Assembly (NCBI GenBank): GCA_965153455.1
Contig: OZ234493.1
Coordinates: forward strand, 9,724,213 to 9,788,212
Reading direction: 5' to 3'
Origin: Sphagnum compactum
Lineage: Eukaryota
Length of the DNA stretch: 64,000 bases
The position numbers and the translations under genes were made by a program. The stretch's first letter is position 1; each line of letters starts with the position of its first letter. Below are positions 1,287 through 47,100 of the stretch, piece by piece. A model generated the notes under the pieces. That model made no database searches. It had not been told where the DNA came from and worked only from the letters and a program-made list of their open reading frames with translations.

Positions 1287-4200
1287 ATGAGATCATTCAG
1301 GTTGCTGTCTTTCGGGAATTGTAGTTCCGCTTGGACGCAGCAGATTAATGTGCCTTCCCTATGCCTGCGCCTCGCTCTCACGCAGCAGCAGCAGCAGCAG
1401 CAGCCTTCGGTCTGTGCGACTGGAGGGAGTAGGAAAGGACTTGGCGTGTTGTTGCTGGAGTTGAAAGCATTTGGCCAGCCAGACGCTAGCGTCAGAGCTT
1501 TCGTTCATCCTGTTTTCAGAGACTCCTTCTCCAACGAGTCTTCAGATTTTTTAAGCGCTGGCTGTCTCTGTACTGACGGTTGTACACTGTCGCTCGGGCT
1601 TGGCGGCAGAAGAAGATATCATACGAGTGTAATTGTTGGCGGTAAGTACAGACGAATGCTTGGACGGACAAGTGATTGCAGGACTTGAACGACACTCGTG
1701 AGATTTTTCTATGCCTTCTTGAGCAGCATCGCTGCTCAAAACATCCCTCTGTTTGGAGCTATGACAGTGATAATTTCTCAGTGTCAAGGCTTAGGGTTTG
1801 GATTTCTCTGGCCTCGAGTGTTCTCACACCAACTTGGACGGACAAGTGATTGAACGACTTGAACGAACTCGTGAGACTTTTGCATGCCTTCTTGAGCAGC
1901 ATCGCAAATATCCTCTCTCTGAAGCTATGGCAATGATACTTTCTCAGTGTCAAGGTTTAGGGTTTAGGGTTTCAATAGAAATCCAAACCCTATTAGGATT
2001 TCAGTAGTAAAGGAAGAACTTCGCCATTTGGTTACCGTTCTCACCCCGACTAACCAGATGGCGAAGTTCTTCCTTAACTACTGTATCATGAAATTCTGTA
2101 ACTTTTCTACACAGGTCTCAGGGGTCACCTTGCAACTGCCTCGAGGTTGCAGTCTACGAGATGCCTGTAAGGCGTGATCCATATTCGCCAACATAGCATC
2201 AATGTGGTAGATTATTGTGGTTATCAGAAGTATTGGAACTTAGGGTTTAGATTCCTGGGGGAAGTTTTTTGCAACCAATGGCTCTTTTTGTCAGCATCAG
2301 AAGGTTTCTAGTTTCTACCACTGCAAGGAGTCATACATTTCAAATGGGTATGAGACTCTGAATGTATGTCAAGCCTTCCAGGAGATGTGGCATTCCTCTT
2401 CTTTTTGTGCAATACTTGCAACATGCACTTTGTGGTTTTTCTAACATCCTGTTCAGAGTGGTAATTGGAAGAAGTATTACTTCACTTTGAGATCTCTGCA
2501 GTGACATGTGAATCTGTGATGCTTGTGATATCGATTGCAACGCAGGAAAGAAAGGGAAGAAAGCTGAAAAGGATATCCTCGTAAATGAAAGGGAGGATGG
2601 TGTGGACCAAGGCAAAGAATGCAGTGAAGACGAGGAACACACAAATTGGAAGAAGAAGCTCAGGGGAAAAAAGGATCATGATCAACTGGAATATGGAGAT
2701 GTCACAGTTGCAAATGGCAGCACAGAAGTGCAACTAAAATCCAAAAAGAAGAAGCTCGAGGAATTGTCTCAGAATGGTGATGTGTCCCTCAGAAAGGTTA
2801 ATGAAGATGAAGATAACCTGCTGATTCAGAACCAGAAGCCAGAAGGAACTGAGGATGTTGTCAATGGTGCACTAAGGGTGGATGATCCCAGGGTCGAGGA
2901 TAAGCAAAAGGTCAAGAAGAAGCTGAAGAGCAAGGTTAAGGGCAAGGAGGATTTGAGTCATGAAGGTACTGCTGTTGAAGATGATGATATTGGGACAAAG
3001 CATAAGGATAAGAGGAAGTTGATGAGCAAGCAGAAACGTCAGGATGTTGAGGAGGCCAATGCTGATAAAGTGGACAATGTGGTGGTGGAAGCAAATGTGG
3101 ATGATTTGGCAGATGGAGAGACATTTCAGGAATTTGAGGACACAGAGCAGTTCACAAATGGTATGTTGTAGCAGATTTTCAGGACTAGGCCATGACATGT
3201 TCTCCAGAACTGGGCAGTTTCTGCTATTCTTCATGTTCTAGTGCTTTGAAAAAACTCTGCTCACCAATGAATGTATCATTGACTTTTATTGACCTGCATG
3301 ATGTGATTGGAGCAGTGATAGAGAATGAACTTGTGGAGGAGCTGGGCGAGCACCTTGAGGATGATGATATCTGGGAGGATGATTTTGACCTTGAGCCTGA
3401 GGTGTGTTATAATTCAGCACTTTATTAGATGCTATACATTTGTTCTGTTTGTCATCTTACTCTATGGTCGTTTGTCCTTTGTTTTCAGTTGTTTCTCTGG
3501 CATTTCTCACAAGGATTCGGTTCATTTAATATGTAGTTCCTTTGGGGGGCTTTAAAAACAATTCCAATCTTTTTCTGTGGAGTATTTGTAACTCTTGATC
3601 AGGTGCAAACTTTTATAGGTGGGAGATGGAGGAGAGGGTGGGGGTGTTGTACTTGGTGACTCTTCATGGGGCCAAACTGTGCTGGATCTAGCTAATGATG
3701 CATTGGCTCAGTTCAATGGTGATCTTGCCATCTTTGCATTCAAGGTTTCCAAAGAGAGTGAGCTTATTCATGTGCGGCTGGACAAGTTATCTGACAAGTA
3801 AGTCAGTGATGACTCCTAAGTCCTTTAGCTTTTATGATCTACATGTGGTGAGGAGTCCTCTGCATGTTACATCTTCTATGGTGTTGTTTGGTGTCCCTCT
3901 CTTCTGTCAAGCTTTTGTATATATGGTTGCTAATTTCCATAGGCTCTGTAGATTACTGTCTGGGGCTACACTGCCTGAAGGTAGATTCTTATTTCCAGGG
4001 CCAAGATAAAATGGCTCAAATGTACCCAAATATGGGTTTAGATCCCACTCATCATAGCCACACCAATGGGCAACTGATGCCCACATTTGTTAGGTAGCTG
4101 TATTTTTGATATATGTCATATATAGGAATGGTCAAATCTGAGATATCTTGGTTAAATTGCTGAACCTTAATATTTTTGGAAAATATGTGCTTGCCAAACT

Positions 4201-26823: not shown

Positions 26824-28782
26824 ATGACGATCCACGAGATGCGTGTAGCTTTGCAAAGATTGGTGCTCTTAGTACTCGTATCTGATTTTCTTCAGTTGTG
26901 CACTTCGACTCCAGTTCTCGCATTCAACAACAGGAGCTCTCTGAATCTGGCATTCATGCGTATCCGCACCTCTAGATCGCGTTTGATGGAAGCAGCACGT
27001 GCAGCAGGTGTGACAAACCTAGTGCAGCTCTCGGACATGATCTGTAAATCTGAGCTCGAGTCTGTGGACCTCGGTCTCAGCGCTTCACACAATTTTCTTT
27101 CGAGTGGGAAGAGCGAGGAAGCTGTGAGAGAGCTTCTTGCCGTCGACAACTCTCTTGACACTTGCATGAAGAATTTCATGGGCGACGAAGAGGAGGAGAT
27201 CAGTGCGCGGATTCATCAACTTCGGGCGATTTTCGAGAAGATTCGGCACAGCGTTTCTTCTGCTGTAGATCTGATCGATCGCAGTTCGCGTCGAGGTGGG
27301 GTGGAGCCACAAGAATCAAAAAATCTCGAGATCAATCCGCGTCTGTTCCAAGGTGTTGGGTCTGCTGATCGGACCGTCGTCGACGAAGGAGCTGACGAAA
27401 CTCTTTCGGCTATGGCGGATGATGATGGCTCGCCTTCATGGGGACCCCAAGAGGAATCGAGATCAGCATCAACCAACTCGTTCAGTATGAAGCACCTACC
27501 TCTTCCGCCGGAAATTCCTTCCATAATGGACGAGATGATGAACGTCGATTACTGCTCACCGCATGTCGAGCTCTACGGTGCGACTGCAACCATCCGCCTG
27601 GATAGCTCATGCGGAGGCAAGTTTCATTCACGAAGCAAGTACTCATCGGGAGTTTTCTCAGTCCGAATGAAACCTCCTCGAGGAGCTTCCGGAGTGAGCA
27701 GCAGTTTCTACATTTCATCCAACGACGAAGATCCCGACTTGATCAGCTTCGACTTCGTAGGCAACCACCCCAACAGAATCCTCACCTCTTACGCAGTGCA
27801 TGGAAAATACTCGGGCACACTGCAAACTTTCTCCATGGAGTTTGATACCACTGCAAAGCTCCATGACTACACCATCAAGTGGGACGCCGAGAGTGTGATC
27901 TGGATGGTCGACAATCGTGTGCTCCGGACCTTGAGAAGCTCCTCTCCAGTGCAGGAACTGGACTCCGACTACCCAAGAAAACCTGGACACGTTTATGGCT
28001 ACCTCTGGGATGCATCGGATATGAACTGGGCCGGGAAGATCAACTGGGCTGATGGACCTTTCGAGATGGTTTACGCGGATCTAAGAACCACTTCGCCACT
28101 GGCAGTGGGTCAATGGCATCCTCCACCAGCTGATCCTAGTGCAGCTGCTTCAGGGTTTCACCACGTTCCAGTTCCGTTACAACCCATTGTGATCGACTAC
28201 TGTGGATCCAACATCGACGTCCAGGACTCGGAGAATCATCATGAATTCTCCATCTTGTTCGATAGCTTGGGTTGCGGTGGGAGGATCAAATCACTGGCTA
28301 AATACTCGACAGGAATGTTCAGTGGGAAGGTGAAATGTGCAGATGGTGACACTAGCGGTCTTCTCACCAGTCTCTACATCTCCTCTGGCGAGGGAAACCC
28401 ATTACAGGATGAGATTGATTTCGAGTTTCTAGGGGACAACAAGGCTATCGTGCAGACCAATTTCTACGTGAATGGCGTGGGAGGTCATGAGCAATGGATT
28501 GATCTAGGCTTCGATTGCTCACAAGGCTTTCACACTTACGCCATCCATTACAACACGCACAGCATTCAGTGGTTTGTGGACTCCAAGCTGGTCCGGACCG
28601 TGAGTCGATCTGAGCAGGTGAAGCTACAAGATTCGTTTCCTGTCAAGCGTATGCGCATGTATGCTTCAGTGTGGAATGCTTCAGGCGTTGAGAATGGTGC
28701 TTGGACCGGTCCATGGCGTGGTGATGACTTACCATTTGTTGCCAAATTCAGTGATCTGACTATCCAGTCTCCTCCTCCTTGA
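26824..28782 (+). CDS. Secreted multidomain GH16 protein: signal peptide, PMEI-like helical pro-domain, two tandem EG16/XTH-family endo-glucanase domains (first degenerate, second with intact DEIDFEF)
   Basis: Single uninterrupted ORF; first ATG 26824, alternative ATG 26839. Hydrophobic N-terminus LVLLVLVSDFLQLC. Domain 2 (~28177-28770) has IDYC, C..G.TSG, SSGEG...QDEIDFEFLG..K.IVQTNFY, DLGFDCS..FH.Y.I and MYASVWNAS, typical of EG16, and ends without the XTH C-terminal extension. Domain 1 (~27538-28095) is colinear but has DLISFDF at the catalytic site. Confidence 0.9.
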   Translation: MTIHEMRVALQRLVLLVLVSDFLQLCTSTPVLAFNNRSSLNLAFMRIRTSRSRLMEAARAAGVTNLVQLSDMICKSELESVDLGLSASHNFLSSGKSEEAVRELLAVDNSLDTCMKNFMGDEEEEISARIHQLRAIFEKIRHSVSSAVDLIDRSSRRGGVEPQESKNLEINPRLFQGVGSADRTVVDEGADETLSAMADDDGSPSWGPQEESRSASTNSFSMKHLPLPPEIPSIMDEMMNVDYCSPHVELYGATATIRLDSSCGGKFHSRSKYSSGVFSVRMKPPRGASGVSSSFYISSNDEDPDLISFDFVGNHPNRILTSYAVHGKYSGTLQTFSMEFDTTAKLHDYTIKWDAESVIWMVDNRVLRTLRSSSPVQELDSDYPRKPGHVYGYLWDASDMNWAGKINWADGPFEMVYADLRTTSPLAVGQWHPPPADPSAAASGFHHVPVPLQPIVIDYCGSNIDVQDSENHHEFSILFDSLGCGGRIKSLAKYSTGMFSGKVKCADGDTSGLLTSLYISSGEGNPLQDEIDFEFLGDNKAIVQTNFYVNGVGGHEQWIDLGFDCSQGFHTYAIHYNTHSIQWFVDSKLVRTVSRSEQVKLQDSFPVKRMRMYASVWNASGVENGAWTGPWRGDDLPFVAKFSDLTIQSPPP

Positions 28783-28799: not shown

Positions 28800-29230
28800 T
28801 CAAAAAATGGCCCACTTGGGAGTCCTCCAACTGGTTCTCCTGCCACTAGGCTCAAATCCTCCTCCCAATTCTATCTAGACCCATAATTTTATTGTTGGAT
28901 CTGCTTGTGATTAGGAAGAGACTATGATGTGGTTCAAATCTCATTCGATCCCAGTTTTTGAGGAATTCATGAGAATTGAATTCACCAGACCTTGTTACTT
29001 TGAACTAACTGTGAGTTTCATTTTCAGGGGAAATTCATGGAACATTTCAGCCTATTTTGTAAATTAGACTTCCAAATTTTCTTTTGTACACTGGCATTGA
29101 GATATAACAAGCATGAATTACTAAAATCTCCCAGTGCCCATGTTGATCAATTTGGTTGCATGTGCTGCCTGGAGCCAATTTCAGCTGGGTACAGATTTCT
29201 CATCATTGATCTCAGATTTTTCCCTGATGT
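28800..29230 (+). pseudogene. Decayed third GH16 repeat downstream of the stop codon
   Basis: Frameshifted fragments colinear with the two GH16 domains: SPPTGSP linker; YC-GS...ISFDPS (~28890-28955); TVSFIFRGNSWNISAYFVN (29008-29064; cf. LISFDFVGNH.. and EIDFEFLG...NFYVN); FCTLALRYNKHE (cf. FHTYAIHYNTHS); DLR (cf. ADLR at end of domain 1). Confidence 0.6.
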
Positions 29231-36707: not shown

Positions 36708-38328
36708 CTAGCATGACCAATAGTCCATGCAAGAAACAGACACCATCCTCAAATTGATGAAAGTGATTGGCATCCCTCACCATGATTGCTCTCCTAGCTA
36801 TTTTTGAAATGAACTTTGCGAAAGTATTGCATTCTTCACAAACCCACAGATCTTCATTATTCAGAGTGGAGTACCAGGAGCTGCATTGATGAGCCACAAT
36901 GCAATATCCAGTTTCTCACTATGGTCACACAAATGGAACACCTTTTCTTTTTTTTCCACATCATGCAGAACAAATTTAGTGTAAGGCACATACCTGGCAT
37001 CATGCACAGGCCCTGACAATCTCTGCAGTTCTGCACAGATTTCAATCATCTGAGGGTGGGCTTGATCATCTACTACAAACATATACACCTCATCTTTCAA
37101 TTCAATTCAGGTGCAATCAGGCTGTTTCTTCGCACCTTTTTCCTTTCTTGGCCATTCAACACTCTCAGAGAGATGCCTGTTGCCAGCAGCAGCATAGATG
37201 TTTGATAGCAGCATGTAACCAGCAGCATTTCCAGGCTTCAATCCAAGAATTTGCTTAGCAACATGTTCTCCCATCTCCACATTACCATGAATTCTGCAAT
37301 TGCCAAGCAAAGCCATGGATGGTGCCACATGTGGTTTACAGGGCATTGCCTTCATCATATTCTCTGCCACCTGTAGATGGCCAGTACAGCAAAGAAGGCC
37401 AACCATGCAGGTGTTACATTCCAATGTTGCAGAAATCATGTACACTGTGATCATTGAAGCATAACACCACATGCCTTCATCCACTAAACATGAATGGCTA
37501 CAAGCGGACAGGAGACAAACAAAAAAAATCATGTCATCTGGCTGTACAACCTTCTTCACAAATCCATTCAAAATGTTTGAGAGCTTCCTTACCATGCCTG
37601 CACATGGCACATCCTCCAAGTATGGTGGTCCAAGTGACCACATCTTGAGATATCATCTTGATGAACACTTTCCAAGTATCCTCCATGCTCCCACATTTTG
37701 CATACATGTCAACCAAGTTATTCCCCACAAAGACATCAGACAAGAAACTGCTTTGAACGATCTGCTCATGAACACACCTGCCCTCTTCAAGCACAACCAC
37801 ACTGGCACATGCATTCAGCACCCCAACAAAAGTAGCAGAGCTTGGTCACACAGGCTCCTGTTGCTGTTGTCAACATAGTTGCAGTGTCTTCTGACCTTGC
37901 CGACATTTTCCATATCCCAATATCATGTTGTTCCAAGTAATCACATCTTGAGATGGCATCTTGTTGAACACTCTCTAAGCATCCTCAACGCTCCCACATT
38001 TTGCATACATGTCAATCAAGTTAGTACCCACAAAGACATCAGACTTGCAACCACTAATTTGAATGAGCTGTTCATGAATAAGCCTGCTGTCTTCAAATGC
38101 TCCTAAACCAGCATATGCACAAATCAAGGAACAAAAGTGAATTCATTAGGAGGAGCATTCCTTCTTGTTGCGTATGCTGGAAAAGCTGCATCACCTTCTC
38201 AGGTTGCCCATTCTTCACATATTTCGTAAGCTTCTGATTCCATGCAAAAAATATTCAATTGCACTGTGCTTGGTGCCATTGCAGCCATCTCTGGTGTCAC
38301 CCACAGCAGGTTTCATCAGTTCTTGCAT
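36708..38328 (-). pseudogene. PLS-class DYW-type pentatricopeptide repeat (organellar C-to-U editing factor) pseudogene
   Basis: PPR motifs (VFVGNNLVDMYAKCGSMEDTWKVF, LLSACSHSCLVDEG), E domain (ALLGNCRIHGNVEMGE, YMLLSNIYAAAG), PG-box remnant, and DYW domain (HSEKL, VCEEC, IMVRDANHFHQFEDGVC; SCMDYW with DYW at 36725-36717). Spread over several frames with internal stops and no introns that would repair them. Confidence 0.88.
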
Positions 38329-44990: not shown

Positions 44991-47100
44991 TAACATTATT
45001 GTCCCTCCATTTTGGATTCCATCCTCAAAATCCTTGCTTTAGTTTTTTTTTAAATCATATTCTTTAAATCACTACGTCAGTCATGTCTGACTTGCTCTAT
45101 TTCTCCTAAGTGGTTAATATTACTACCTACACTTCAATTTATGATTTTGTATGGCCCTTAACTTTTGCACTCATTTGAAAAACTAAATTATCAAGTAGTG
45201 GTGTTGTTATACCTTCTTGAGCTTGCTATTCTGTATGTTCCATGCCTTCCTTCCCAACTTCAACTAGCTCCCTCTATATGCCAATATCATTAGGTATGAT
45301 CGTTATCTCCAACTATGAAGTTGTTTATGCTTGCTCCTCAGATACCTTAGTTAGAATCTCATGTCTTCTTCCCTTTAACTTCTGTGGTTTTTCTTGATGT
45401 GTGTCATTAACTGCTCCATTGTAGTTAGTTTCCTCCACCTCCTATATTGGATTGGATGGTTTTATATTATTTGGATTGCGAGAAATGAAATTTGGAAAGG
45501 CTTTCTTAAAGTTAGATAAATGTCTTCTATAGGTGGCCACATCCCTTTTATGTGTAGCCAAATTTTTTAACATCTCTTCTTGGAACTAAGCTTCTACCAT
45601 CTCCCATGGGCCACCACTCATTAAACTCAACATTAGCATCATCCATCTATTGTTTGGTACGCAGTATTGAATAATACTGTAACAAGTCATCATATTCCTT
45701 CGGGATCTGTTTTTAACATATGGTGGGTCCAAATCCTTGTTCGTCTCCATCAAATCACCTAGTTTTGACTTGGTTTTGTACATCCCTTACTTTAATTCAT
45801 TTACCTCCATAACTACTTGCTCCTTGGTTTTCTTTGCATTCTACCTACTAAACTTTTCTATTGCAACCATGTTGTTCATTTTGTAGAATCTATACCATCA
45901 TCTTGTCAATTGTTTGTTTTCTAGTTTCTTGTTCTTGCAACCATAGTTGCTTCTCTCTTTCCAACCCTTCAACCTTATGCTTATATTTTATCAATGCTTT
46001 CTTATATGCATGGTTTGCTTCAGTCCATGTTTCTTCCTTTTGCCTCAACTCCATGCATTCCTTCTTTAACTCTGCAAATTCCATCAACTTTTGTTTCATG
46101 TCTTTATTCTCAATGGTTAGCTGCAACATCTTCACATTGACTTTCTCCTCCATCTCCTTTTTTTGTTTGTTCCAAATTTTCATATGTTGTCTATACTCTT
46201 CATATCCTTGAGGCTCCTTTTTAATTTGTTTCAATAATCCTTGCTTCTCCTCTTCCATTGTAGTTAATCTGGTTTTGAATGACTAGACTTCCAAATCCAA
46301 ATTACCCATCTTCAGACTCATAATTGCCATTGCTTAAAACATTTCAACAATTTTTTTATTGCCCAATACTTCTTTTGCCAATTCCTTTACAAATTTGGTG
46401 TCAAATTATGTGGTGTTTTTTCCTTAGATACATCTTTTGATGACATTCCCCTATCCCTCATTTGTAACCCTAAATCCATATCCAACCCTTGCCCTTCTAC
46501 TATTCCTAGTCTACTTTGTGGTAGCACTATGGTAGGTGGTCTAAAATCATGCATTGTTGGTCCTAATACCTCCATTTGTTGTTCTTGAAATGAATGTGAC
46601 TACTGTTATTCCATTTGTGGTTGTGGGAGTTGTTTATCCATTGGAGTCTCCTCATGGACTGCCATCTAAGCATGAAAATCGTACAAATCATCCACTGCAT
46701 TATATATTTCATTTTTTTGTTTTGCTCTTATAGTGTTGTTGTTACTTGATATGTTCTAATTTATTTTTTGTTAAATCTACTATGACTGTTGCCTCCTTTC
46801 TTGCTTTTGTTCGAAGCCTTGATGTCTCTCTGGTTTGGTAGGAACACGTCTGATAATTATTCCTAAAATTACAACCTCTAATGGTTTGGTAATTCCACAC
46901 ATTACTTTTTGAGGCCTAGCATCCTCTCTTGATTTTTTTCGTTGTTCTGATCCTTCTTTTGCTTCAAATGTGTTCTTCCTTTCTTGTAGAGATTTTGGAG
47001 ATCCCTTTGTTACTCCCCTTCAATTGTCCAAAACCTGTTACAACTCCTCATTAGACCTCTTGGATTTCTTCTGAACGTTTTTCGTTGTAACTTCATAATC
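44991..47100 (-). mobile_element. Degenerate gag-like LTR-element internal region with polypurine tract
   Basis: Minus-strand coiled-coil ORF 45890-46258 and adjacent broken ORFs. Minus strand at 45026-44991 reads GAGGATGGAATCCAAAATGGAGGGACAATAA-TGTTA, resembling a Ty3/gypsy PPT followed by an LTR start. Confidence 0.45.

What the first reader, a model, noticed from the sequence alone, without database searches (positions are those of the whole stretch)
26824..28782. Secreted fusion of a PMEI-like pro-domain with tandem EG16-type GH16 domains
Seen: one intronless 652-aa ORF with a hydrophobic leader, a ~110-aa helical region, an acidic linker and two GH16 domains lacking the XTH C-terminal extension. 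Known: canonical XTHs have one GH16 domain plus XET_C, and canonical EG16 enzymes are ~210-aa single domains without a signal peptide. Inferred: the helical region (ICKSELESVDLGLSAS...AVRELLAVDNSLDTCMKNF...SVSSAVDLI) follows the PMEI pattern (DC.E....A...L..S...SAALTN.DTC.DGF...SNALA), though it lacks the N-terminal Cys pair. The linker NPRLF...DDDGSPSW resembles the RRLL...DGFPSW linker of type-I PME pro-regions. I do not know this architecture as a described family; it would join a pectin-enzyme pro-domain to hemicellulose endo-glucanases.
Basis: partly seen in the sequence, partly recalled or inferred. Interest (0 to 1): 0.85.

Follow-up and report, generated by a model that had tools for sequence, protein, structure and literature searches.

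The report
Moss PMEI-like, dead-plus-live GH16 protein
This is a real peat-moss gene for a probably secreted cell-wall protein that joins a helical domain shaped like pectin-esterase inhibitors to one inactive and one intact EG16-like glucanase domain, an uncharacterised design shared by mosses, lycophytes and a fern.

Summary
The ORF (26824..28782 +, 652 aa) is real and the longest open frame in the window. It has five parts:
- a hydrophobic leader;
- a confidently modelled helical bundle (res 28-156);
- a disordered acidic linker (157-232);
- two GH16 domains without XET_C.

The helical bundle gets no Pfam PMEI hit. Its model's 8 best PDB fold matches are nevertheless all PMEI or invertase inhibitors. 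Language-model neighbours are PMEI clusters for two divergent members. A Cys pair 39-40 residues apart is kept in 10 of 10 members.

It is still as conserved as domain 2. Domain 2 keeps EIDFE and matches VvEG16 best, but it sits beside the canonical EG16 clade, with Closterium proteins.

The claimed PME-type linker motifs are not conserved. The family occurs in Sphagnum, Physcomitrium, Ceratodon, Selaginella, Diphasiastrum and Adiantum. It may be the little-described "EG16-2" lineage, which I could not check.

The parts
26824..28782 (+). Whole intronless coding sequence, 652 codons plus stop
   Evidence: ORF listing and translation. It is the longest open frame in the window. It matches a 654-aa Sphagnum magellanicum protein at 95% identity over its full length. 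Colinear contigs of four runs cover it.
26824..26904 (+). Residues 1-27: hydrophobic leader, probable signal peptide. The cleavage site was not determined.
   Evidence: A hydrophobic 9-mer (Kyte-Doolittle mean >= 2.0) lies in the first 30 residues of 11 of 11 family N-termini. The three canonical EG16 proteins checked reach at most 1.1. No signal-peptide predictor was available.
26905..27291 (+). Residues 28-156: helical bundle with a PMEI / invertase-inhibitor-like fold
   Evidence: AF2 gives pLDDT 85.6 and pTM 0.80. The Foldseek top 8 PDB hits are all PMEI or cell-wall invertase inhibitor, E 4.5e-3 to 9.5e-2, TMq 0.47-0.72. ESM Atlas nearest clusters are PF04043. There is no Pfam hit for this protein.
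27043..27165 (+). Cys74 to Cys114: the conserved cysteine pair of the helical domain, at the start of one helix and near the end of the next
   Evidence: Both Cys are invariant in 8 of 8 aligned sequences. Spacing is 39-40 residues in 10 of 10 full-length members. Coordinates were checked by translation. The disulfide itself is inferred.
27292..27519 (+). Residues 157-232: disordered, acidic, poorly conserved linker
   Evidence: pLDDT is below 50 over residues 157-232. Mean pairwise identity among mosses is 22.6%. It holds 14 Asp+Glu against 7 Lys+Arg, and no conserved dibasic processing motif.
27520..28113 (+). Residues 233-430: GH16 domain 1, an EG16-like jelly roll predicted to be non-catalytic
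   Evidence: The hmmsearch envelope is 228-430, against EG16 profile positions 20-206. The best PDB sequence match is VvEG16, 3.9e-22. It keeps 41 of 99 canonical-EG16 conserved columns. Mean pairwise identity among mosses is 66.2%.
27733..27762 (+). PDLISFDFVG: the degenerate counterpart of the catalytic motif in domain 1 (Glu to Leu, Asp to Ser, Glu to Asp)
   Evidence: Translation. The nucleophile Glu is replaced in 16 of 16 sequences that hold domain 1.
28114..28185 (+). Residues 431-454: short Pro-rich connector between the two GH16 domains
   Evidence: Alignment. pLDDT is below 50 at residues 437-445. Mean pairwise identity among mosses is 51.9%.
28186..28779 (+). Residues 455-652: GH16 domain 2, an EG16-like domain with an intact active-site motif and no XET_C extension
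   Evidence: It matches VvEG16 at 6.6e-50 over chain residues 5-201 of 208. Foldseek gives TMt 0.90-0.94 and rmsd 1.4-2.0 A to VvEG16. It keeps 67 of 99 canonical-EG16 conserved columns.
28405..28434 (+). QDEIDFEFLG: the intact ExDxE catalytic motif of domain 2
   Evidence: Translation. The same 10-mer occurs in VvEG16 (P0040), PtEG16 (P0044) and the Closterium protein.

Best explanation
This is an expressed-type, intact Sphagnum gene for a probably secreted, four-module cell-wall protein of a family kept in mosses, lycophytes and at least one fern. After a signal peptide come four modules:
1. A divergent helical bundle of the PMEI / invertase-inhibitor fold. It keeps only the second of that family's two disulfides.
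2. A long disordered acidic linker.
3. A GH16 jelly roll that has lost the catalytic Glu-Asp-Glu triad and much of the conserved cleft, yet is under as much constraint as the active domain.
4. An EG16-like GH16 domain with an intact ExDxE motif.

Shown: the architecture, its conservation, the loss of the motif in domain 1 and its retention in domain 2, the fold similarities, and the tree position beside (not inside) canonical EG16.

Inferred: domain 2 is the working endo-beta-glucanase, acting in the wall on beta-1,4-linked glucans of the kind EG16 enzymes cut (mixed-linkage glucan, xyloglucan). Domain 1 serves as a non-catalytic partner, for polysaccharide binding or targeting, or as a structural support for domain 2. 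The tethered PMEI-like bundle is a regulatory or inhibitor module, acting either on the protein's own glucanase or on another wall enzyme.
For: Real gene:
- It is the longest ORF in the window.
- A full-length Sphagnum magellanicum protein matches at 95% identity.
- The indels shown inside the CDS in related runs are 3 and 6 bases, while several flanking ones are 1, 2 or 4 bases.

Family:
- Full-length relatives of 574-663 aa share the same order of parts. They are five moss-type sequences, Physcomitrium patens XP_024392224.1, Ceratodon purpureus, Selaginella moellendorffii EFJ27978.1 and Adiantum nelumboides MCO5566974.1.
- A partial Diphasiastrum model holds both GH16 domains.

Leader: a hydrophobic stretch occurs in 11 of 11 family N-termini and 0 of 3 canonical EG16.

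PMEI-like fold:
- The AF2 model has pLDDT 85.6.
- The 8 best PDB fold hits are all PMEI or invertase inhibitor; the next hit, talin, has E 0.11.
- Atlas top hits are PF04043 clusters for both the window domain (0.84) and the Selaginella domain (0.78).
- The Adiantum N-terminus hits PF04043 at E 0.0041.
- The Cys pair is 39-40 residues apart in 10 of 10 members.

Domain 1 dead but constrained: motif table; 41 of 99 conserved EG16 columns kept; 66.2% mean moss identity against 66.5% for domain 2.

Domain 2 EG16-like.

Tree: the domain 2 clade has support 99/94. It is sister to two charophyte-type proteins (98/88), and together they are sister to 33 canonical EG16 rows (97/83).
Against: - No sequence method places the window's helical domain in PMEI. 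Pfam gives nothing at E <= 10. The family profile found no PMEI among PDB sequences (best hits BBK32 and DesK). It found only 7 family members among 1.84 billion representatives.
- No Foldseek hit reaches E <= 0.001, and generic four-helix bundles follow closely.
- Atlas scores below 0.9 are leads only by that tool's own calibration.
- Only 1 of 7 N-termini scanned touches PF04043, and below the cutoff (17.7 against 29 bits).
- The first PMEI disulfide is absent.
- No activity, secretion or binding was measured, and no signal-peptide predictor was run.
- Whether the runs that hold the gene are RNA is only the tool's guess.
- Selaginella's domain 2 reads EIIFE, with the middle Asp lost, so activity may not be universal in the family.
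- Domain 1's position in the tree is unresolved: it is a long branch, and the AU test does not reject a domain 1 + domain 2 clade (p 0.351).
Confidence: 0.6

Rival explanations
1. The helical domain is a generic up-down helical bundle unrelated to PMEI. It would be convergent, serving as a spacer, an oligomerisation module or a wall anchor. The rest of the architecture stands as described.
For: - All sequence searches fail to link it to PMEI.
- Foldseek E-values are weak (best 4.5e-3), and designed and natural four-helix bundles follow at E 0.1-0.5.
- Atlas scores of 0.78-0.84 lie in a range that shuffled proteins reach about a third of the time.
- The profile's best PDB sequence hits are unrelated helical proteins.
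Against: - Three different kinds of evidence single out the same small plant family: fold ranking (8 of the top 8), language-model neighbours for two members only 29% identical to each other in this domain, and a sub-threshold PF04043 hit in the fern member.
- The conserved Cys pair sits on adjacent antiparallel helices at a spacing of 39-40 residues. From recall, this matches the second PMEI disulfide.
- Both families are apoplastic plant proteins.
Confidence: 0.25
2. The N-terminal domain is a true pro-region, as in type-I pectin methylesterases. It would hold the glucanase inactive during secretion and be cut off in the linker by a subtilase before the enzyme acts.
For: - The PMEI-like fold sits N-terminal to the enzyme part, as in type-I PMEs (the PME architecture is from general knowledge).
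- A long disordered, protease-accessible linker follows it.
Against: - No R[RK]-hydrophobic-hydrophobic motif lies in the linker of any of 10 full-length members. PRLF is confined to the two Sphagnum sequences and SPSW to the window alone.
- The linker is the least conserved part, at 22.6% identity.
- In Selaginella the linker is a 148-residue Ser/Thr/Pro-rich stretch (64 of 148), typical of a permanent flexible tether between CAZyme modules.
Confidence: 0.12
3. The ORF is an annotation or assembly artefact, or a decaying gene: a read-through of neighbouring PMEI-like and GH16 genes with no function as one protein.
For: - No run on record as RNA was listed.
- Domain 1 has lost its catalytic residues.
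Against: - The single frame has no stop over 671 codons.
- The same order of parts occurs in 10 full-length proteins from mosses, a lycophyte and a fern.
- Domain 1 is as conserved as domain 2.
- Contigs from four runs are colinear across all junctions, and the CDS indels are multiples of three.
Confidence: 0.02

Closest known systems
Canonical plant EG16 endo-glucanases (VvEG16, PDB 5DZE/5DZF/5DZG; PtEG16; PpEG16)
   Same: Domain 2 aligns over the whole enzyme (chain residues 5-201 of 208) at 6.6e-50. It superposes at TMt 0.90-0.94 and has the identical QDEIDFEFLG motif. It lacks XET_C. Domain 1 also matches VvEG16 best, at 3.9e-22.
   Different: Canonical EG16s are single-domain proteins of about 210 aa without a signal peptide, single-copy, and about 70% identical across plants (PMC9887094, introduction read). 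Here there is a leader, an extra helical domain, a linker and a second, dead GH16 domain. Domain 2 is only 41-48% identical to them. It branches outside their clade with support 97/83.
EG16-2 group (Behar et al. 2018, as cited in PMC8711696 and bioRxiv 10.1101/835561)
   Same: EG16-2 proteins are described as close to EG16, biochemically uncharacterised, and mostly bearing signal peptides in Klebsormidium (PMC8711696, section 7 read). Zygnematophyceae hold many (12 in Penium; bioRxiv 10.1101/835561, passages read). Domain 2 groups with two charophyte-type proteins, one from Closterium. From recall only, the 2018 abstract speaks of an N-terminal extension in EG16-2.
   Different: The passages I could read speak of charophycean EG16-2s. 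They say nothing of a second GH16 domain, a PMEI-like domain or land-plant members. I could not read Behar et al. 2018 or any supplement, and I had no labelled EG16-2 sequence. Identity with EG16-2 is therefore untested.
PMEI / cell-wall invertase inhibitor family (PF04043; PDB 1X8Z, 1XG2 chain B, 1RJ1, 2CJ8)
   Same: The predicted helical bundle ranks these as its 8 best PDB matches. The language-model neighbours are PF04043 clusters. One conserved Cys pair joins neighbouring helices. Both are plant apoplast proteins.
   Different: It is below Pfam's threshold or undetected. The N-terminal Cys pair is missing. It is fused to GH16 domains rather than free-standing or fused to a pectin methylesterase.
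Pro-region of type-I (group 2) pectin methylesterases
   Same: A PMEI-like domain sits N-terminal to a wall enzyme in one polypeptide. This is an architectural analogy, from general knowledge.
   Different: No conserved RRLL/RKLL-type processing motif is present (0 of 10 linkers). The enzyme partner is a GH16 glucanase, not a CE8 esterase.
Non-catalytic GH16-derived recognition proteins (insect beta-GRP/GNBP; cited in the reference list of PMC6827312; function from general knowledge)
   Same: A GH16 jelly roll has lost its catalytic residues but is kept under selection, as domain 1 is here.
   Different: The lineage and context are different. Those are animal immune receptors with no known link to plants. 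Domain 1 is fused directly upstream of an intact paralogous domain.

Membership tests
GH16 (Pfam PF00722) | Significant match to the family profile | tested here: met
   E 2.1e-71, 239 bits against a cutoff of 22, in 2 stretches. Both domains span about positions 17-207 of an EG16 profile.
GH16 (active enzyme) | ExDxE catalytic motif (nucleophile Glu, helper Asp, acid/base Glu) | tested here: met
   Met for domain 2 only: EIDFE at residues 530-534. Domain 1 reads LISFD, and the nucleophile is lost in 16 of 16 sequences, so domain 1 fails this feature.
Canonical EG16 | GH16 domain without the XET_C extension (PF06955) | tested here: met
   No PF06955 hit at E <= 10. Domain 2 ends where VvEG16 ends.
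Canonical EG16 | Single-domain protein of about 210 aa without a signal peptide (PMC9887094; PMC8711696) | tested here: not met
   The protein is 652 aa with four modules and a hydrophobic leader.
Canonical EG16 | Placement inside the EG16 clade; about 70% identity among orthologs (PMC9887094) | tested here: not met
   Domain 2 is 41-48% identical to EG16 proteins. It branches outside the 33-row canonical clade, which has support 100/99; the split is supported 97/83.
XTH (GH16_20) | C-terminal XET_C extension; closest similarity to XTHs | tested here: not met
   No PF06955. XTH-type chains score 2.8e-26 or worse, against 6.6e-50 for VvEG16.
EG16-2 | Placement with labelled EG16-2 sequences and their signature residues | not testable with these tools
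   No labelled EG16-2 sequence or signature list was available. Behar 2018 is not held and supplements are closed. The only indirect hint is that domain 2 is sister to Closterium-type proteins.
EG16-2 | Signal peptide present (5 of 6 Klebsormidium members; PMC8711696, section 7) | tested here: inconclusive
   A hydrophobic leader occurs in 11 of 11 family N-termini, but no signal-peptide predictor was run.
PMEI / invertase inhibitor (PF04043) | Match to the Pfam profile above the gathering score (29 bits) | tested here: not met
   No hit at E <= 10 for the window protein. Of 6 other N-termini, only Adiantum hits, at 17.7 bits and E 0.0041.
PMEI / invertase inhibitor (PF04043) | Four-helix-bundle fold superposable on solved members | tested here: met
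   The top 8 Foldseek PDB hits are all family members, TMq 0.47-0.72, E 4.5e-3 to 9.5e-2. The query is a predicted model with pLDDT 85.6.
PMEI / invertase inhibitor (PF04043) | Four conserved Cys forming two disulfides (recalled from the literature on kiwi and Arabidopsis PMEI) | tested here: not met
   Only one conserved pair is present (Cys74 and Cys114, spacing 39-40 in 10 of 10). No conserved N-terminal pair exists. Equating the retained pair with the second PMEI disulfide rests on recall and on helix positions.
Type-I PME pro-region | Conserved basic processing motif (RRLL/RKLL type) between the pro-domain and the enzyme | tested here: not met
   No linker of 10 holds R[RK] followed by two hydrophobic residues. 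PRLF occurs in 2 of 10 and SPSW in 1 of 10.

The most novel reading that the evidence does not exclude
The PMEI-fold domain is a built-in, tethered protein inhibitor or regulator of the family's own GH16 glucanase, and the dead GH16 domain is its docking or substrate-holding partner. PMEI-type control would then have been recruited to a hemicellulose or beta-glucan hydrolase in early land plants, independently of pectin methylesterases and invertases, and later lost in seed plants. This would be a third enzyme class governed by this inhibitor fold, and a natural inhibitor, pseudoenzyme and enzyme in one chain.
Probability: 0.15. Interest if true: 0.8.

Novelty: new variant of a known kind. Interest (0 to 1): 0.55.

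Why it matters
EG16 enzymes are presented in the literature I could read as single-domain, leaderless, single-copy proteins whose role in the plant is still unclear (PMC9887094).

This family shows a parallel EG16-like lineage in mosses, lycophytes and a fern. Among the deposited proteins searched it was not found in seed plants. It is probably secreted by the classical route. It also carries two extra modules: a constrained pseudo-GH16 domain and an inhibitor-like helical bundle.

If the helical bundle is a true PMEI relative, the inhibitor fold has been joined to a glucanase as well as to pectin esterases. That bears on how early land plants regulated wall loosening.

Physcomitrium patens has an ortholog (XP_024392224.1), so knock-out, localisation and enzyme assays are directly feasible. 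Sphagnum cell walls are of ecological interest in peat formation.

Tried and rejected
- Complex prediction of the helical domain (residues 28-160) with the two GH16 domains (233-652) gave no verdict: score 0.00, controls not run, alignments not used. It says nothing either way.
- RNA evidence: no listed holder is on record as RNA. Two small runs that the tool guesses may be RNA have contigs covering only about 26355/26374 to 29063 plus about 250 unlike bases, while a larger run covers 29 of the 30 bins laid. This is at most a weak hint of a transcript of about 2.9 kb.
- The window's own genome is not held, so paralogs and synteny could not be examined.
- A word-index search for free-standing relatives of domain 1 found only one family fragment. 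That method's sensitivity is limited, so this is no proof of absence.
- Behar et al. 2018 could not be read by DOI or PubMed id.
- Searches for two, tandem or duplicated GH16 domains together with EG16, for six gene identifiers of family members, and for PMEI + GH16 + N-terminal extension + bryophyte found nothing relevant in the held full texts. Supplements are closed and may list these genes.
- Earlier findings of this scan: nothing.
- The idea that 'EG16-2' means 'two-domain EG16' was rejected. In the passages read it names a clade.
- The fold search of the full-length model found no solved tandem-GH16 protein, only single GH16 domains.
Full report
**1. The observation**

The window holds an ATG-to-stop ORF of 652 codons at 26824..28782 on the + strand. 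Read from stop to stop it is 671 codons. It is by far the longest of the 11 open frames of 130 aa or more in the 64 kb; the next is 219 aa. It sits in the most G+C-rich 2-kb bin of an otherwise A+T-rich, evidently eukaryotic window (0.478).

A 654-aa protein of Sphagnum magellanicum (CY35_07G060700, 'hypothetical protein') is 95% identical over the full length. The window therefore comes from a Sphagnum-like moss, and an independent gene model agrees with the intronless reading.

Contigs of four public runs lie colinear over the whole CDS. The two indels shown inside the CDS are 3 and 6 bases long, while several of those shown in the flanks are 1, 2 or 4 bases. That is the pattern expected of a coding sequence under selection.

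**2. Anatomy**

| Part | Residues | Evidence |
|---|---|---|
| Hydrophobic leader | about 1-27 | |
| Helical bundle | 29-156 | alone: pLDDT 85.6, pTM 0.80 |
| Disordered linker | 157-232 | pLDDT below 50 |
| GH16 domain 1 | about 233-430 | |
| Pro-rich connector | 431-454 | |
| GH16 domain 2 | about 455-652 | |

The full-length AF2 model, built on an 18-row family alignment, has pLDDT 75.7. Pfam finds GH16 twice (E 2.1e-71). It finds no XET_C and no PMEI, even at E <= 10. The helical part is about 130 residues rather than 110.

**3. The two GH16 domains are not equivalent**

Domain 2:
- It carries QDEIDFEFLG, the same ten residues as VvEG16 and PtEG16.
- It aligns with VvEG16 over the whole enzyme at 6.6e-50. 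Nasturtium NXG1 scores 2.8e-26, poplar XET 3.9e-21 and Bacillus licheninases about 1e-23.
- It superposes on VvEG16 with TMt 0.90-0.94.
- It keeps 67 of the 99 columns that are at least 90% conserved in 33 canonical EG16 rows.

Domain 1:
- It reads PDLISFDFVG. The nucleophile Glu is Leu, the helper Asp is Ser, and the acid/base Glu is Asp.
- The nucleophile is replaced (L/M/T/I/A/V/S) in 16 of 16 sequences that contain domain 1. The Asp is Ser or Gly in all 16.
- It keeps only 41 of the 99 conserved columns. Several invariant polar residues around the motif are gone, so the cleft has been remodelled, not merely disarmed.
- It is still as conserved as domain 2 among seven moss orthologs: 66.2% against 66.5% mean pairwise identity.

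Domain 1 is therefore a maintained pseudo-enzyme domain. 'Tandem endo-glucanases' is not the right description.

**4. The helical domain**

By sequence it belongs to nothing known:
- No Pfam hit above noise.
- A family profile against all PDB sequences finds only unrelated helical proteins.
- The same profile against 1.84 billion representative proteins finds 7 proteins at E <= 0.001, all members of this same family.

By fold the picture is different:
- Of 350,542 PDB chains, the 8 best Foldseek matches to the model are all Arabidopsis or kiwi PMEI, or the tobacco cell-wall invertase inhibitor (E 4.5e-3 to 9.5e-2, TMq 0.47-0.72). The first unrelated bundle follows at E 0.11.
- The ESM Atlas feature search returns PF04043 clusters as nearest neighbours for the window's domain (0.84) and for the Selaginella domain (0.78). 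The latter is only 29% identical to the window's domain. These scores are leads only, by the tool's own calibration.
- The fern member's N-terminus gives a sub-threshold PF04043 hit (E 0.0041, 17.7 bits against a cutoff of 29). It is the only one of 7 N-termini scanned to do so.
- Two Cys are invariant and lie 39-40 residues apart in 10 of 10 full-length members. They sit at the start of one helix and near the end of the next. From recall, this is the arrangement of the second PMEI disulfide. The first, N-terminal pair is absent.

I read this as a divergent PMEI-superfamily domain, with probability about 0.65. A convergent bundle is the main rival.

**5. The linker**

PRLF is found only in the two Sphagnum sequences and SPSW only in the window. 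No R[RK]-hydrophobic-hydrophobic motif lies in any of 10 linkers.

The linker is the least conserved part, at 22.6% identity. In Selaginella it is a 148-residue Ser/Thr/Pro-rich stretch. It looks like a flexible tether rather than a conserved cleavage site.

**6. Family and phylogeny**

Full-length relatives with the same order of parts are:
- five unnamed moss-type sequences of 592-628 aa;
- Physcomitrium patens XP_024392224.1;
- Ceratodon purpureus M758_10G162300;
- Selaginella moellendorffii EFJ27978.1 and EFJ04967.1;
- Adiantum nelumboides MCO5566974.1.

A partial Diphasiastrum complanatum model also holds both GH16 domains. No seed-plant member appeared in either the full-length search or the N-terminal profile search.

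I built a maximum-likelihood tree of 58 rows: 10 domain-1 rows, 11 domain-2 rows, 35 single-domain EG16-like proteins, one further charophyte-type row and one XTH. Fragments P0009, P0010, P0013, P0064, P0059 and P0008 and the near-duplicate P0002 were left out.
- Domain 1 forms one clade (100/99) and domain 2 another (99/94).
- Domain 2 is sister to two charophyte-type proteins, one from Closterium (98/88).
- Together these are sister to the 33-row canonical EG16 clade, which runs from a liverwort to angiosperms (97/83).
- Domain 1 is a long branch near the single XTH outgroup, so its place is unsure. An AU test does not reject a domain 1 + domain 2 clade (p 0.351), so an internal duplication remains possible.

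The family is thus a paralogous lineage beside EG16, older than land plants. It is not a member of the EG16 ortholog group.

**7. Literature**

In the papers I could read:
- EG16s are single-domain, leaderless and single-copy (PMC9887094, introduction).
- 'EG16-2' is a related, uncharacterised group, described for charophytes and mostly with signal peptides (PMC8711696, sections 6 and 7 and passages; bioRxiv 10.1101/835561, passages; PMC9569819 and PMC12737017, one passage each; PMC6827312, passages).
- None mentions a second GH16 domain or a PMEI-like domain.

The defining paper (Behar et al. 2018) is not held. From recall, its abstract speaks of an N-terminal extension in EG16-2. The present family may therefore already be catalogued there under that name; I put this at about even odds. 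Supplements that might list the genes are closed. No held full text contains the six gene identifiers tried.

**8. Mechanism**

Shown: the architecture, its conservation, motif loss in domain 1 and retention in domain 2, the fold likenesses, and the tree position.

Inferred:
- The protein enters the secretory pathway.
- Domain 2 is an endo-beta-glucanase of EG16-like specificity.
- Domain 1 is a non-catalytic binding or support module.
- The PMEI-like bundle is a tethered regulatory or inhibitor module.

Whether the bundle acts on its own enzyme is open. The complex prediction gave no verdict.

**9. Verdict**

- The thing is a new variant of a known kind: an EG16-related, multi-module family, uncharacterised and perhaps partly catalogued.
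- Interest is moderate to fairly high for plant cell-wall biology.

Noticed in passing
window 37110-37652 (- strand): A 181-aa open frame ends in a PPR E motif (PF20431, E 1.3e-11). It is probably part of a pentatricopeptide-repeat gene about 8 kb downstream of the finding.
   Followed up: partly
window 29063-29065: Related Sphagnum-type runs carry about 250-273 extra bases here, just 3' of the gene. One contig has 273 letters between 29063 and 29065, and two others run on with the same unlike sequence. This is an indel polymorphism or a small mobile insert relative to the window.
   Followed up: no
window 26877 and 28129: In-frame differences from related runs: 3 extra bases in the leader and 6 extra bases in the inter-domain connector. 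They match the extra Leu and the extra Ala-Pro of the S. magellanicum protein.
   Followed up: partly
P0062 / P0065 (Selaginella moellendorffii), residues 537-546: In both Selaginella copies domain 2 reads ADEIIFEWLG. The middle Asp of ExDxE is Ile, so even the 'live' domain may be impaired or altered in this lycophyte.
   Followed up: no
P0061 (75 aa): This is a short, degraded-looking copy of the Sphagnum-type helical domain (E 4.5e-7 to the family profile). The second Cys region is missing, which suggests a pseudogene fragment or a mis-called ORF somewhere in a Sphagnum-like genome.
   Followed up: no
window 2512-3171 (+) and 45890-46282 (-): Both are Lys/Glu-rich open frames of 219 and 130 aa with no Pfam match. 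They may be exons of low-complexity or coiled-coil proteins.
   Followed up: partly
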